Source of the DNA: Clostridia bacterium
GTDB lineage: Bacteria; Bacillota; Clostridia; Oscillospirales; Acutalibacteraceae
DNA: 64,000 nt
Reading direction: 5' to 3'
Assembly (NCBI GenBank): GCA_017428085.1
Contig: JAFRRP010000069.1
Span: 3,088-67,087, forward strand
Shown here: positions 45,957-60,223 of the stretch, piece by piece
How the letters are laid out: each line of letters opens with the position of its first letter
How positions within the stretch are numbered: the first letter of the stretch is position 1
The notes under the pieces: generated by a model
Told to the model about the DNA's origin: nothing
The model's input: the letters and a program-made list of their open reading frames with translations, nothing else
Database searches by the model: none
Position numbers and translations under genes: made by a program

Positions 45957-46151
45957 ATGGATGGGTATATGACGACAAAGCAAGCTGCTGAGAAATGGGG
46001 CGTCTCCATAAGACAAGTCCAGAACTATTGTAAAAAAGGTATTATTCCAAATGTTGTTACTGTCGGGACAAACTATCTCATTCCAGACTATACGTCAAAG
46101 CCGCAATATGGCTTTTATTCTGCTCCTCAGCCATCGAAGAGCAGTGAATAA
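45957..46151 (+). CDS. Small HTH DNA-binding protein (MerR/excisionase-like)
   Basis: MTTKQAAEKWGVSIRQVQNYCKKGIIPNVVTVGTNYLIP is an HTH_17/MerR-type motif. AGGAAGG RBS. It is the first gene of the co-directional array. Confidence 0.7.
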   Translation: MDGYMTTKQAAEKWGVSIRQVQNYCKKGIIPNVVTVGTNYLIPDYTSKPQYGFYSAPQPSKSSE

Positions 46152-46198
46152 CTGCGTCATGACCATAATTCTTCGATTAAGGGAGAGAGCTGCGTATT

Positions 46199-57605: not shown

Positions 57606-59066
57606 ATGTTTGAAGAGAAAATTCGCGACGTATTTGCCGACATGGTCGTGCTGAAGAACCCGGAGAGAGCTGAATTTTTTAAGAATCTTAGCCTCCCTTC
57701 ATATATGCGCGATTGGCTTGTTATGAAGTTTTCCGATGAAGATGGGGAAATTGACTATGATAGTGTGCTCAGATATATCCGGCAATATATTCCGAGCCGA
57801 GAAGATTATGAACAGTTTAAATTTGCAATGGTCAATGGAGAAACAGTCCGCTTTCTTGCAAGGGTTCGAGTTGGCGTCGACATCAAAACCGGGAAGACCA
57901 TGTTTGAGCTTCCAGATTTTGGAGGAGCTAAGGCCGGTGCTGCTGGTGAAGTCACGAATGACGTCGTGAGTCGATGGAAGGATACCCTTCTCAAAGAGAG
58001 TGAGAACTGGGGAATTATTGAGCTTATTTGGGGAAAAGACTTCTCATCCAGCAAACCAAAAGGCGTTGTTAAGCTTATCGAGTACAGCCCATTCTGCCCG
58101 TACACGGTTGATTTGGAGTACTATAAAGATGCTCGCAATTCATTCACAACTGAGGAATGGATCGATCTCCTCGTAGCGGCGGCAGATTATAATCCTGATG
58201 GCTATGAATCAGAGGAGCAAAAACTATGCTTCCTTCGGCGGCTTCTGCCCTTCGTAGAGAAACGGATAAACCTTATGGAATTGGCCCCAAAGGGCACCGG
58301 TAAGAGCTATGTATATCAAAAAATCAGTAAGCGAGGTTGGCTGATCTCTGGCGGTACCGTTTCCAGAGCATCTCTTGTTTATGACAATGCGAAAAAAACG
58401 GGTGGCCTTATAACGCGTTTTGACTTCGTGGGTTTCGATGAAATCCAGTCCATGTCCTTTGTGCAACCAACACAGATTCAGACAGCCCTGAAAGACTATA
58501 TGGAATTTGGTGAAGTTCAAGGGTTCGATGCCTCTATAGTTGCAGATGCTGGAATTATTGTTCTTGGTAATATCGACGCCAGCAGGTTTAACGTCAACGA
58601 AAATATGATGGAAGAGATCAGTCCTGTCTTTAGAGAATCGGCATCATTGGACCGTTTTCATGGATTTATTCCTGGATGGGAGCTTCCACGTATGCATCAG
58701 GGCCTTGTTGCCAATGGTTGGGCCCTGAATACTGAGTATTTTGCAGAGGTGTTACACCTTATGCGAGATGACCTTAGTTACGCAACCATCGTCGATGATT
58801 GCCTTCTCCTTCCGCCAAAGCCGGATCAGCGCGATCTCACAGCAATTAAGCGCCTATGCACGGCTTTTTTGAAGCTTATATTCCCGAATGCAACATGTAA
58901 AGAGGATATCTCTCCAGAAGATTTCATCAAATATTGCCTGGAACCCGCTAAGGAGATGCGTAGTGTGATTAAAAAACAACTATGTGTCATTGATCCAAAA
59001 GAATTTAATATCCCCGGGAAAAACACAATTCCTAATATTCAGTATAATTATAATGAAATGCCATGA
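57606..59066 (+). CDS. brxL: BrxL-like ATPase (Lon-related AAA core; no Lon protease domain visible)
   Basis: N-terminus FADMVVLKN...LSLPSYMRDWLVMKF, Walker A ELAPKGTGKSYVY, Walker B FVGFDEIQ, and LDRFHGFIPGWELPRM, all as in BrxL. AAGGAGG RBS before ATG 57606. At 486 aa it is too short to include the C-terminal protease domain. Confidence 0.75.
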   Translation: MFEEKIRDVFADMVVLKNPERAEFFKNLSLPSYMRDWLVMKFSDEDGEIDYDSVLRYIRQYIPSREDYEQFKFAMVNGETVRFLARVRVGVDIKTGKTMFELPDFGGAKAGAAGEVTNDVVSRWKDTLLKESENWGIIELIWGKDFSSSKPKGVVKLIEYSPFCPYTVDLEYYKDARNSFTTEEWIDLLVAAADYNPDGYESEEQKLCFLRRLLPFVEKRINLMELAPKGTGKSYVYQKISKRGWLISGGTVSRASLVYDNAKKTGGLITRFDFVGFDEIQSMSFVQPTQIQTALKDYMEFGEVQGFDASIVADAGIIVLGNIDASRFNVNENMMEEISPVFRESASLDRFHGFIPGWELPRMHQGLVANGWALNTEYFAEVLHLMRDDLSYATIVDDCLLLPPKPDQRDLTAIKRLCTAFLKLIFPNATCKEDISPEDFIKYCLEPAKEMRSVIKKQLCVIDPKEFNIPGKNTIPNIQYNYNEMP

Positions 59067-60223
59067 AGAAACCTATTTATGCAGACAACGCCGCAACAAC
59101 GGCATTAGATATTGACGCTTTTGAAGCGATGAAGCCATACTTGCTGAGCGAGTATGGCAATGCTTCGCAGCCGTATTTTTTCTCTCGAACACCAAAGAGG
59201 GAATTAAAAGAAGCGCGTGCTACGATTGCTTCGTGTATCGGAGCTCAACCGGATGAGATTTTTTTCACTTCCGGCGGCACAGAAAGCGACAACTGGGCGA
59301 TTAAGTGTTTCGGTTCGCCGAGTGATGTTCGAACGATATTTACTTCTCAAATCGAGCACCATGCAGTATTAAACGCCTGCGATCACCAATTTGGGAATAG
59401 TAAATGCGCGGTGGTACGTCTTCCGGTTGATTCGGAGGGTATTGTAAGTCCTTCTGTTTTGCATGATGCAATGATAGAAGAAGTCAGCAATCGCGCTGTT
59501 GTAAGTTGTGAAACTAAGCTCGTTTCTATTATGCTTGCGAATAATGAAATCGGCACAATAGAACCAATAAAAGAATTGGCGGATGTTGCGCATAAACGTC
59601 GGGCTATTTTTCATACGGATGCGGTACAAGCGGTTGGTCATATCCCGATAGATGTTCAGGATCTTGGCGTTGATCTCCTTTCCGCTTCTGCACATAAGTT
59701 TAACGGTCCAAAAGGAATTGGTTTTCTTTATGTTCGCAAAGGGACATTGTTGTTTCCATATCTAAACGGCGGTGCGCAAGAAAGAGAAATGCGCGCAGGG
59801 ACAGAGAATGTTGCCAGTATTGTCGGAATGGCTGTTGCGCTAAAGAATAATTGTGACGCAATTGAGCAAAACCGAGCGCATATTCAAAAACTGGAGAAAT
59901 TACTGATTGCATTACTCGACGAGTCTGGGATGCAGTATTCGCGGAATGGTTGGCAAAATAAGTTGCCTGGTTTGCTGAGTTTATCTTTCCCGGGTAAGGA
60001 TGCGGAAGCGATTTTACATCGGATGGATTTGATGGGAATTTGTATTTCCACCGGCGCAGCTTGTAATAGTGTTCATACGGAAGTATCTCATGTGCTAAAA
60101 GCAATTAATCTTGAGGATTATCTTGCAAAAGGCACAATTCGTATTTCCCTCGGGAAGAATAATACCGCAGATGATGTTCAATCATTAACGCTGGCCCTAA
60201 AAAAGATTCTCTTGTCTGAATAA
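59063..60223 (+). CDS. Cysteine desulfurase (class V aminotransferase, NifS/IscS/DndA-type)
   Basis: IYADNAATT, FTSGGTESDN, the PLP lysine motif SASAHKFNGPKGIGFLY, and the catalytic Cys loop ISTGAACNS. The start overlaps the brxL-like stop (ATGA at 59063-59066). Confidence 0.88.
   Translation: MKKPIYADNAATTALDIDAFEAMKPYLLSEYGNASQPYFFSRTPKRELKEARATIASCIGAQPDEIFFTSGGTESDNWAIKCFGSPSDVRTIFTSQIEHHAVLNACDHQFGNSKCAVVRLPVDSEGIVSPSVLHDAMIEEVSNRAVVSCETKLVSIMLANNEIGTIEPIKELADVAHKRRAIFHTDAVQAVGHIPIDVQDLGVDLLSASAHKFNGPKGIGFLYVRKGTLLFPYLNGGAQEREMRAGTENVASIVGMAVALKNNCDAIEQNRAHIQKLEKLLIALLDESGMQYSRNGWQNKLPGLLSLSFPGKDAEAILHRMDLMGICISTGAACNSVHTEVSHVLKAINLEDYLAKGTIRISLGKNNTADDVQSLTLALKKILLSE

What the first reader, a model, noticed from the sequence alone, without database searches (positions are those of the whole stretch)
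45957..60223. BREX type 4-like operon with a built-in cysteine desulfurase: candidate sulfur-based (phosphorothioate-like) self-marking defence system
Seen in the sequence:
- An AT-rich, co-directional gene array has gaps of 0-50 nt.
- The order is: small HTH; 741-aa unknown; BrxP-like protein (PP-loop SGGKDS, RWCC, plus CxxCxxCxxxCP ferredoxin motifs); 1397-aa P-loop BrxC-like protein; PglZ (VTGDHGSS); zinc-ribbon microprotein; BrxL-like ATPase; NifS/IscS-type desulfurase (SAHK lysine, GAACNS cysteine).
- The last junctions are ATGA start/stop overlaps at 57386 and 59063.
- I could find no DNA methyltransferase motif in any frame of the window.

Established knowledge:
- BREX type 4 was defined bioinformatically (Goldfarb et al. 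2015) as brxP-brxC-pglZ-brxL, with the PAPS-reductase-domain protein replacing the PglX methylase.
- In Dnd phosphorothioation, the cysteine desulfurase DndA/IscS delivers persulfide sulfur to the PP-loop/Fe-S protein DndC, which has the same fold.

Inference:
- The translationally coupled desulfurase feeds BrxP, so this BREX variant would mark self DNA with sulfur instead of a methyl group.
- To my knowledge no modification chemistry has been demonstrated for type 4 BREX, and a desulfurase is not part of its definition.
Basis: partly seen in the sequence, partly recalled or inferred. Interest (0 to 1): 0.9.

Follow-up and report, generated by a model that had tools for sequence, protein, structure and literature searches.

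The report
Type 4 BREX operon with desulfurase
This is an intact type 4 BREX phage-defence operon that carries its own cysteine desulfurase, so it most likely marks host DNA with sulfur (phosphorothioate).

Summary
Window 45957-60223 (+) holds eight tightly packed, co-directional genes:
- a small HTH protein
- a 741-aa unknown protein (U741)
- BrxP (PAPS-reductase/PP-loop plus 4Fe-4S motifs)
- BrxC
- a type-4 PglZ
- a 67-aa zinc-ribbon protein
- BrxL
- a NifS/IscS-type cysteine desulfurase

No methyltransferase is found anywhere in the window.

The desulfurase belongs to the operon:
- It has the island's GC content (0.44, against 0.61 for the host).
- It sits directly after BrxL or the zinc ribbon in 42 of 54 informative related loci.
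- All four of its nearest database relatives that I sampled lie in the same kind of operon.

Yuan et al. (bioRxiv 2024, Nat Commun 2026) showed that type 4 BREX brxP and brxC make phosphorothioate DNA. [quoted passage not shown]

Some interest remains:
- U741 has no description that I could find. It is a tandem winged-helix protein with swappable N-terminal DNA-binding modules, conserved upstream of brxP.
- No experiment has tested the desulfurase, the zinc ribbon, or phage defence in this Bacillota clade.

The parts
45957..46151 (+). Small HTH protein (64 aa), the likely operon regulator. It follows the AT-rich intergenic region 45742-45956, which holds a promoter-like site at 45889-45917.
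   Evidence: Pfam HTH_17 4.5e-07; PADLOC mad1 2e-07. Conserved only in the closest loci, at 38-62% identity. The promoter-like match comes and is not statistically enriched.
46199..48424 (+). U741: a 741-aa protein of unknown function, conserved directly upstream of brxP. Its C-terminal ~300 aa form a tandem winged-helix array. The N-terminal half is made of modules that are swapped or rearranged between homologues.
   Evidence: No Pfam, PADLOC or credible NCBIfam hit. 244 homologues found; most match only the C-terminal ~50% of the query at 60-80% identity. The alignment shows module shuffling, and two homologues carry an N-terminal MrcB_N domain at 6.4e-53. Its C-terminal half is found upstream of BrxP in 48 of 63 loci. 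AF2 model of residues 443-741: pLDDT 87.5, pTM 0.78. Foldseek top hits are all tandem winged-helix proteins (UFL1, cullin WHB, SelB, Dcc1, Rpc5), with best E 5.8e-3 and no enzyme fold. The syntenic 1106-aa protein in Pseudoruminococcus massiliensis shares the C-terminal domain (hhalign E 1e-4, 279 columns, probability only 57%). Its N-terminal part instead carries RNAP alpha-CTD and sigma70-r4 modules.
48457..50796 (+). BrxP (779 aa): PP-loop ATP pyrophosphatase / PAPS-reductase domain, a ferredoxin-like 2x CxxCxxC region, and a C-terminal DNA-binding region. The literature calls that region DUF4007, SspB-like or BrxA-like.
   Evidence: PADLOC BrxP 776.5 bits across residues 1-778; a second BrxP model covers 522-773; weak DndC and SspD hits. 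Pfam PAPS_reduct 1.2e-25 (residues 132-308) and Fer4_7 (456-494). Motifs verified. SGGKDS, RWCC and the cysteines are invariant in 13 homologues.
50809..55002 (+). BrxC/PglY-type P-loop ATPase (1397 aa), also related to SspC.
   Evidence: PADLOC BrxC 3.7e-76; SspC models down to 2.6e-23. Pfam DUF6079 N-terminus 1.5e-05. Walker A GAYGTGKS at residue 65.
55020..57389 (+). PglZ (BrxZ), type-4 subfamily (789 aa).
   Evidence: NCBIfam BREX_PglZ_4, 261.8 bits against a cut-off of 140. PADLOC PglZ 1.6e-29. VTGDHGSS at residue 574.
57386..57589 (+). Zinc-ribbon microprotein (67 aa). Its start overlaps the PglZ stop (ATGA).
   Evidence: Sequence. Present in 50 of 54 informative loci, including loci that lack a desulfurase. 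Conserved pattern CxxC...CxxC...C...DLxxKIxEFKEQGCxLF with six conserved cysteines. It corresponds to the small zinc-finger protein noted in PMC12839542.
57606..59066 (+). BrxL, the Lon-like ATPase (486 aa counted from ATG 57606).
   Evidence: TIGR02688, 417.5 bits against a cut-off of 329.3. Pfam BrxL_ATPase 1.4e-106 and BrxL_N 3.1e-24. PADLOC BrxL 613.7 bits. Start codon read and matched by gene calls.
59063..60223 (+). Group-I (NifS/IscS/DndA-like) PLP-dependent cysteine desulfurase (386 aa). Its start overlaps the BrxL stop (ATGA).
   Evidence: Aminotran_5 2.1e-72. PADLOC DndA 393.8 bits and SspA 392.3 bits. Below the equivalog cut-offs for NifS, DndA and IscS. Best PDB sequence matches are cysteine desulfurases, including SspA 6m4j and DndA 3vax. 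PLP lysine K212 and catalytic C334 are invariant in 49 of 49 BREX-linked homologues. GC 0.436. Synteny; nearest relatives.

Best explanation
This is a horizontally acquired, intact type 4 BREX system of the Bacillota clade, sitting in a defence island of an uncultured Clostridia MAG. It most likely marks self DNA by phosphorothioation.

Proposed modification steps:
1. The operon's own PLP-dependent cysteine desulfurase (Lys212, Cys334) strips sulfur from L-cysteine as an enzyme persulfide.
2. The sulfur passes to BrxP, directly or through BrxP's Fe-S cluster. BrxP is a PP-loop ATP pyrophosphatase with a 4Fe-4S ferredoxin-like insert and a C-terminal DNA-binding region.
3. BrxP, together with the SspC-like ATPase BrxC, inserts sulfur at a non-bridging backbone oxygen in a short sequence motif.

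PglZ and BrxL form the exclusion arm against unmarked incoming DNA. The zinc-ribbon protein and the tandem winged-helix protein U741 probably belong to this arm or to targeting. The small HTH protein regulates the operon.

Shown here: gene content, motifs, synteny, and that the desulfurase is dedicated to the operon.
Shown in the literature for other members: BrxP plus BrxC make phosphorothioate DNA when a host desulfurase is present.
Inferred: everything biochemical for this locus, including desulfurase-to-BrxP transfer and the roles of the zinc-ribbon protein and U741.
For: - All four defining type-4 genes hit their specific profiles, two of them above curated cut-offs. Catalytic motifs are intact, and there are no frameshifts.
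- No methyltransferase is present.
- The desulfurase is translationally coupled to BrxL and has island-like GC.
- It is syntenic in 42 of 54 loci. The commonest gene order, U741-BrxP-BrxC-PglZ-ZnR-BrxL-CysDes, matches the window in 37 loci.
- All four nearest desulfurase homologues that I sampled from the top of a 5.8-billion-protein search sit in BrxC-PglZ-BrxL-ZnR operons.
- The desulfurase's catalytic Lys and Cys are invariant.
- Literature: PMC12914056 shows that deleting brxC abolishes PT dinucleotides and that brxP plus brxC reconstitute them in B. thetaiotaomicron. [quoted passage not shown]
Against: - Nothing has been measured for this locus or for its Bacillota clade. The validated systems are from Bacteroidota. 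The Bacteroidales BrxPs recovered in my survey are only about 32-33% identical to this one, and they lack the zinc-ribbon protein, U741 and the desulfurase.
- BrxP falls far below the DndC equivalog cut-off: 20.9 bits against 290.
- 12 of 54 loci lack a linked desulfurase, so it can be dispensed with when a host enzyme substitutes.
- Direct persulfide transfer to BrxP, as opposed to Fe-S cluster assembly on it, is untested in any BREX-4 system.
- Anti-phage activity for the PT-making type-4 variants they studied was still listed as awaiting investigation in PMC12914056.
Confidence: 0.85

Rival explanations
1. The linked desulfurase is mainly an Fe-S maturase. It builds or repairs the [4Fe-4S] cluster(s) of BrxP, making the mobile operon independent of the recipient's ISC/SUF machinery. 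The sulfur that ends up in DNA comes through a host route.
For: BrxP carries two invariant CxxCxxC ferredoxin-type motifs. DndA is reported to assemble DndC as an Fe-S protein (You et al. 2007, as cited in PMC12914056 and PMC12839542). 12 of 54 loci do without a linked desulfurase. BrxP plus BrxC worked with only a host SufS available.
Against: In Dnd and Ssp the same class of enzyme is also taken to be the sulfur donor for the modification, so the two roles do not exclude each other. The tight and widespread linkage fits either role.
Confidence: 0.2
2. The desulfurase is just the organism's housekeeping NifS/IscS and lies next to the BREX genes by chance.
For: Its best NCBIfam match by score is NifS (402.6 bits), although this is below the 530.75 cut-off. 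Only 64 kb of the genome is visible, so I cannot show a second desulfurase elsewhere.
Against: - A 4-nt ATGA overlap with brxL.
- GC 0.436, like the operon, against 0.61 for the host.
- The same position in 42 of 54 related loci across several phyla.
- All four sampled nearest homologues lie in BREX-4 operons.
- No nifU/iscU or other Fe-S assembly gene is adjacent.
Confidence: 0.03
3. This Bacillota clade of BrxP uses the sulfur relay for a chemistry other than backbone phosphorothioation. Examples would be a thiolated base in DNA, or thiolation of an RNA, as other Fe-S PP-loop enzymes such as TtcA and TtuA do.
For: BrxP here is only about 32-33% identical to the Bacteroidales representatives in my survey. 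It differs from DndC by the ferredoxin-like insert and falls below the DndC cut-off. The clade has extra conserved genes, U741 and the zinc-ribbon protein, of unknown role.
Against: The PADLOC BrxP model matches over its full length at 776 bits. The same BrxC/PglZ/BrxL partners are present. PMC12839542 describes the ferredoxin-like insert as a general feature of type-4 BrxP and of some SspD proteins. PT dinucleotides were found in every brxPCZL group tested in PMC12914056.
Confidence: 0.06

Closest known systems
BREX type 4 (brxP-brxC-pglZ-brxL; defined by Goldfarb et al. 2015; PT synthesis shown by Yuan et al., Nat Commun 2026, PMC12914056; desulfurase and zinc-finger association reported in NAR 2026, PMC12839542)
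   Same: All four defining genes are present in the canonical order and there is no PglX methylase. BrxP has the PAPS-reductase, ferredoxin-like and C-terminal DNA-binding regions. PglZ is of the type-4 subfamily. The cysteine desulfurase plus small zinc-finger protein match the 'sixth component' arrangement reported in 56% of taxa.
   Different: Nothing essential differs. This clade adds a conserved upstream gene (U741) that I did not find described in either paper. It places the zinc ribbon between pglZ and brxL. The experimentally validated systems are from Bacteroidota, and the Bacteroidales loci in my survey lack the desulfurase, the zinc ribbon and U741.
SspABCD phosphorothioation module (Xiong et al. 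2020)
   Same: The parts correspond: desulfurase to SspA (PADLOC 392 bits), BrxP PAPS-reductase domain to SspD, BrxP C-terminal region to SspB/DUF4007 (from the literature), and BrxC to SspC (PADLOC down to 2.6e-23). The expected chemistry is the same.
   Different: The SspD-like and SspB-like functions are fused in one protein. The partner effectors are PglZ and BrxL rather than SspE or SspFGH. BrxC scores far better on BrxC models than on SspC models.
DndABCDE phosphorothioation system
   Same: A NifS-like desulfurase (DndA) is paired with a PP-loop/Fe-S sulfurtransferase (DndC). The desulfurase gene is optional and can be replaced by host IscS.
   Different: BrxP is not a DndC equivalog (20.9 bits against a 290 cut-off). 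No DndB, DndD or DndE and no DndFGH are present. The desulfurase is below the DndA equivalog cut-off (295.6 against 480).

Membership tests
BREX type 4 | BrxP: a PAPS-reductase-domain protein in place of the PglX methyltransferase | tested here: met
   PADLOC BrxP 776.5 bits over residues 1-778 of 779; Pfam PAPS_reduct 1.2e-25.
BREX type 4 | BrxC/PglY P-loop ATPase | tested here: met
   PADLOC BrxC 3.7e-76; Walker A at residue 65. The NCBIfam BREX_BrxC (type-1) model reaches only 26 bits against a 400 cut-off, as expected for a divergent subtype.
BREX type 4 | PglZ alkaline-phosphatase-fold protein of the type-4 subfamily | tested here: met
   NCBIfam BREX_PglZ_4, 261.8 bits against a cut-off of 140.
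BREX type 4 | BrxL Lon-like ATPase | tested here: met
   TIGR02688, 417.5 bits against a cut-off of 329.3.
BREX type 4 | No PglX-type DNA methyltransferase in the cluster | tested here: met
   No methyltransferase motif in any ORF of 100 aa or more in the window. No methyltransferase Pfam hit in the flanking ORFs. None in the ~5 kb beyond the window end on identical contigs.
BREX type 4 | Phosphorothioate modification of host DNA dependent on brxP and brxC | not testable with these tools
   Shown for B. salyersiae in PMC12914056. Needs LC-MS/MS or PT-seq for this locus.
BREX type 4 | Protection against phage | not testable with these tools
   Needs plaque assays.
BREX type 4 with linked desulfurase (PMC12839542) | [quoted passage not shown] | tested here: met
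   Desulfurase at 59063-60223 overlaps the brxL stop; zinc ribbon at 57386-57589. The arrangement recurs in 42 of 54 loci for the desulfurase and 50 of 54 for the zinc ribbon.
Dnd system | DndC equivalog sulfurtransferase | tested here: not met
   TIGR03183, 20.9 bits against a cut-off of 290.4.
Dnd system | DndA equivalog desulfurase | tested here: not met
   TIGR03235, 295.6 bits against a cut-off of 480. The protein is homologous but is not an equivalog.
Dnd system | DndB, DndD, DndE and DndFGH partners | tested here: not met
   The PADLOC scan of all operon proteins gave no such hits.
Ssp system | Separate SspB, SspC and SspD proteins with SspE or SspFGH | tested here: not met
   SspC and SspD models hit BrxC and BrxP only secondarily (2.6e-23 and 3.7e-4). 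No SspB, SspE or SspFGH hits.
Housekeeping NifS / IscS | Score above the equivalog cut-off, and an Fe-S assembly gene neighbourhood (nifU/iscU) | tested here: not met
   NifS 402.6 bits against 530.75; IscS 282.5 bits against 643.2. The neighbours are BrxL and a SLFN-type helicase.

The most novel reading that the evidence does not exclude
U741 would be an undescribed seventh core component of the Bacillota clade of type 4 BREX. It has a conserved four-fold winged-helix C-terminal scaffold and swappable N-terminal DNA-reader modules: MrcB_N, RNAP alpha-CTD/sigma70-r4, and a HARE-like wHTH. On this reading it docks onto the BREX complex and acts as the specificity or non-self-sensing subunit, either choosing the PT motif or recognising unmarked or foreign DNA. 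A side possibility is that the six-cysteine zinc-ribbon protein, which is more widely conserved than the desulfurase, is a sulfur-relay or regulatory partner and not a transcription factor.
Probability: 0.3. Interest if true: 0.5.

Novelty: already known. Interest (0 to 1): 0.25.

Why it matters
That speaks well of the scan, but it does not make this locus a discovery.

What remains useful:
- This is a clean, complete, apparently mobile example from gut or rumen Clostridia. BrxP proteins at least 90% identical occur on hundreds of contigs, including Ruminococcus bromii. It could serve for the first test of a desulfurase-containing, Bacillota-type BREX-4.
- The role of the linked desulfurase, of the very conserved zinc-ribbon protein and of the U741 winged-helix protein has not been tested in any system.
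- The restriction mechanism of type 4 BREX is still unknown. BrxC, PglZ and U741 evolve fast here and are the obvious candidates for the phage-facing interface.

Tried and rejected
- Sequence searches on U741: Pfam, PADLOC and NCBIfam on the protein and on 31 homologues gave nothing beyond MrcB_N in two members and one sub-threshold SepA hit. A PDB sequence-profile search gave no hit.
- Fold searches on U741: Foldseek on the full-length model (pLDDT 74, pTM 0.40) and on the C-terminal domain model (pLDDT 87.5) found no hit at E <= 1e-3, only tandem winged-helix proteins. I therefore found no nuclease or other enzyme fold.
- hhalign of U741 against BrxP, to test whether it is a DUF4007 paralogue: no relation.
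- The promoter and terminator scan was not enriched and gave no operon boundaries.
- There are no tRNA genes in the window to mark an integration site. I saw no integrase.
- Other contigs carrying the identical operon share the same host flank, so the island borders could not be mapped.
- The Goldfarb 2015 paper is not held in the library. Its content is cited from my own knowledge and through PMC12914056.
- The 2024 NAR paper on PT machinery does not mention BREX.
- This locus's accessions are not in the held supplementary text of PMC12839542.
- I considered the downstream PDC-S41 helicase as part of the system and rejected it. It has no tblastn hit in any of the 79 related loci and has a different GC content (0.51).

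
Full report
**Observation**

The mechanical ORF list shows an unbroken + strand array:
- 45957-46151 (64 aa)
- 46199-48424 (741 aa)
- 48457-50796 (779 aa)
- 50809-55002 (1397 aa)
- 55020-57389 (789 aa)
- 57386-57589 (67 aa)
- 57537-59066
- 59063-60223 (386 aa)

Spacers are 12-47 nt. There are two 4-nt ATGA start/stop overlaps, at 57386 and 59063, which I read directly in the sequence. BrxL most likely starts at ATG 57606, behind an AGGAGG. Gene callers on identical contigs also aa.

The operon's genes have GC 0.35-0.46 (the six large genes 0.44-0.46), against 0.61 for the first 30 kb of the window. 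So "AT-rich" is correct relative to the host, and the array looks horizontally acquired.

**Identity of the genes**

| Gene | Evidence |
|---|---|
| Small ORF (64 aa) | HTH_17, 4.5e-07 |
| BrxP | PADLOC BrxP model end to end, 776.5 bits; Pfam PAPS_reduct 1.2e-25 plus 4Fe-4S ferredoxin models |
| BrxC | PADLOC BrxC 3.7e-76; secondarily SspC models down to 2.6e-23 |
| PglZ | NCBIfam BREX-4 PglZ model, 261.8 bits against a cut-off of 140 |
| BrxL | TIGR02688, 417.5 bits against a cut-off of 329.3 |
| Desulfurase | Aminotran_5 2.1e-72; PADLOC DndA 393.8 and SspA 392.3 bits; below the curated equivalog cut-offs for NifS, DndA and IscS |

The best solved-structure relatives of the last gene are group-I cysteine desulfurases, including SspA and DndA.

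The PP-loop, RWCC and ferredoxin cysteines are invariant among 13 BrxP homologues.

**No methyltransferase**

- A motif scan of all ORFs of 100 aa or more in the window found none.
- Pfam scans of the flanking ORFs found none.
- Contigs carrying the identical operon show only helicases and DUF6809 proteins in the ~5 kb beyond the window end.

**Is the desulfurase part of the system?**

I fetched 79 genomic loci encoding BrxP relatives at 32-91% identity. Most are gut or rumen Bacillota MAGs, with some from Nitrospirota and Bacteroidales. I searched them with the window's proteins.

Of 54 loci that contain BrxL and at least 1.6 kb downstream of it:
- 42 have a desulfurase directly after BrxL or after the zinc-ribbon gene.
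- 37 have exactly the window's order: U741-BrxP-BrxC-PglZ-ZnR-BrxL-CysDes.
- The 12 without one are three Bacillota or unclassified loci, five Nitrospirota loci and four Bacteroidales loci.

In a search of 5.8 billion proteins, the desulfurase has a few close relatives and then a broad shelf at about 62-65% identity. I looked up the genomic context of four of these without knowing it in advance. All four lie in BrxC-PglZ-BrxL-ZnR-desulfurase operons.

The PLP lysine (K212) and catalytic cysteine (C334) are invariant in 49 of 49 BREX-linked homologues. The gene's GC content (0.436) matches the operon, not the host. The housekeeping-by-chance reading is therefore effectively excluded.

**What is already known**

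Yuan et al. (PMC12914056; bioRxiv June 2024, Nat Commun January 2026) found PT dinucleotides in brxPCZL-carrying gut isolates. They showed that deleting brxC in Bacteroides salyersiae abolishes PT. They also showed that brxP plus brxC reconstitute PT in B. thetaiotaomicron, which supplies a SufS. They describe BrxP as an SspD-SspB fusion and BrxC as an SspC homologue.

A comparative-genomics paper (PMC12839542, NAR January 2026) reports a cysteine desulfurase in 255 of 457 type-4 BREX taxa. [quoted passage not shown] It also describes the ferredoxin-like insert of BrxP.

**Mechanism (best explanation, confidence 0.85)**

1. The desulfurase makes a persulfide on Cys334 from L-cysteine.
2. BrxP adenylates the substrate and transfers sulfur, using its PP-loop and Fe-S cluster.
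3. With the ATPase BrxC and BrxP's own C-terminal DNA-binding region, it installs phosphorothioates at a short motif on host DNA.
4. PglZ and BrxL, possibly with the zinc-ribbon protein and U741, exclude unmarked DNA.

The gene content and dedicated linkage are shown here. PT synthesis by BrxP plus BrxC is shown for Bacteroidota members in the literature. Sulfur transfer from the linked desulfurase, PT formation by this clade and phage defence are all inferred.

The Bacteroidales BrxPs in my survey are only about 32-33% identical to this one, and those loci lack the extra genes. So extending the published result to this clade is reasonable but not proven.

The main rival is that the desulfurase chiefly matures BrxP's Fe-S cluster. 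That role is compatible with the donor role.

**The unknown 741-aa protein (U741)**

This is the one part I could not find described.
- It has no family hit and 244 homologues.
- Most homologues share only the C-terminal half at 60-80% identity. The N-terminal modules are permuted or replaced. Two homologues start with an MrcB_N DNA-binding domain at 6.4e-53.
- The C-terminal half is found immediately upstream of brxP in 48 of 63 loci.
- In Pseudoruminococcus massiliensis, a syntenic 1106-aa protein shares the C-terminal domain (hhalign E 1e-4 over 279 columns, but probability only 57%). It carries RNAP alpha-CTD and sigma70-r4 modules instead.
- An AF2 model of the C-terminal 299 residues is confident (pLDDT 87.5, pTM 0.78). 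Foldseek retrieves only tandem winged-helix proteins such as UFL1, cullin WHB, SelB, Dcc1 and Rpc5, at weak E-values. It retrieves no enzyme fold.
- Across loci, U741 diverges as fast as BrxC and PglZ (27-40% identity where BrxP is 50-68% and BrxL 49-73%).

I read U741 as a non-enzymatic DNA-binding adaptor or sensor. That is an inference.

**The zinc-ribbon protein**

It is present in 50 of 54 loci, including eight that lack a desulfurase. It has six conserved cysteines and a nearly invariant C-terminal KIxEFKEQGCxLF motif. Its position alternates between PglZ-ZnR-BrxL and BrxL-ZnR-desulfurase. It is therefore tied to the core of the system more tightly than the desulfurase is.

**Context**

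The window comes from a Clostridia MAG. BrxP is MBQ6067433.1 and the desulfurase is MBQ6067437.1. The 90%-identity BrxP cluster has 1113 members, including a "MULTISPECIES" RefSeq protein from Ruminococcus bromii seen on 628 contigs.

The operon sits in a defence island:
- PDC-S30 at 32762-33634
- PDC-S01 at 37535-38866
- a HipA-like/HTH pair resembling PDC-M03 at 44085-45741
- PDC-S41 at 60238-62394
- a UvrD/GajB-like helicase running off the window end

**Verdict**

Novelty: already known. Interest is low to moderate (0.25). What remains of value is that this is a good experimental exemplar of the desulfurase-containing Bacillota clade, plus the uncharacterised U741 and zinc-ribbon components.

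Noticed in passing
window 46199-48424 (+): The 741-aa protein has a confidently modelled C-terminal tandem winged-helix array and N-terminal modules that are permuted or swapped among homologues (MrcB_N in two; RNAP alpha-CTD and sigma70-r4 in a distant syntenic homologue). It is conserved upstream of brxP in 48 of 63 loci and evolves as fast as BrxC and PglZ. I did not find it described in the two BREX-4 papers I read.
   Followed up: partly
window 57386-57589 (+): The 67-aa zinc-ribbon protein is more widely conserved (50 of 54 loci) than the desulfurase (42 of 54). It has six conserved cysteines and an almost invariant C-terminal KIxEFKEQGCxLF motif. The window copy has R in place of the G. 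Its gene position switches between before and after brxL in different clades.
   Followed up: partly
window 59063-60223 compared with loci L002-L012 and L061: Among otherwise very similar operons (BrxP 76-91% and BrxL 82-97% identical to the window), the desulfurases are only 50-86% identical to each other and at most 63% identical to the window's. The window's nearest desulfurase relative outside its own 90% cluster (75%, L084) sits in an operon with the other ZnR/BrxL order. This suggests that the desulfurase module is shuffled between operons.
   Followed up: partly
window 60238-62394 (+) and 62464-64000 (+): A SLFN-group-3/DUF2075-type helicase (PADLOC PDC-S41, 813.7 bits) starts 14 nt after the desulfurase stop. 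It is followed by a UvrD/GajB-like helicase that runs off the window end. Both travel with the operon on identical contigs. The S41 helicase has no tblastn hit in any of the 79 related loci, and both genes have GC ~0.51, so they are probably separate defence genes.
   Followed up: partly
window 44085-45741 (-): Two overlapping genes sit divergently just upstream of the operon: a HipA_C-like protein (weak PDC-M03A hits) and an HTH_17/DUF2442 protein (weak PDC-M03B hit). They look like a toxin-antitoxin pair or candidate defence pair. Their GC of 0.53-0.54 lies between host and island.
   Followed up: no
window 32000-39000: A second low-GC patch (0.43-0.45 at 32-36 kb) carries PDC-S30 (32762-33634, 342 bits), an ORF with no family hit (33731-34531), a SWIM/PDC-S62-like ORF (36182-37114) and PDC-S01 (AAA_14/DUF4143, 37535-38866, 363 bits). 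The whole 32-64 kb stretch therefore looks like a defence island interrupted by host glycoside hydrolase and Lnt genes.
   Followed up: no
loci L007 (Odoribacter MAG), L010 (Lentisphaeria MAG), L023 (Bacteroidales MAG): BrxP copies 81-86% identical to this Clostridia one occur in MAGs assigned to other phyla. This could be recent cross-phylum transfer of the operon or mis-binned contigs. The 90% BrxP cluster also includes a 'MULTISPECIES' RefSeq protein from Ruminococcus bromii.
   Followed up: no
locus L086 7200-13122: In one Oscillospiraceae MAG, the BREX-4 operon with desulfurase lies directly beside prophage tail genes (tape measure, Dit, Sipho_Gp37).
   Followed up: no
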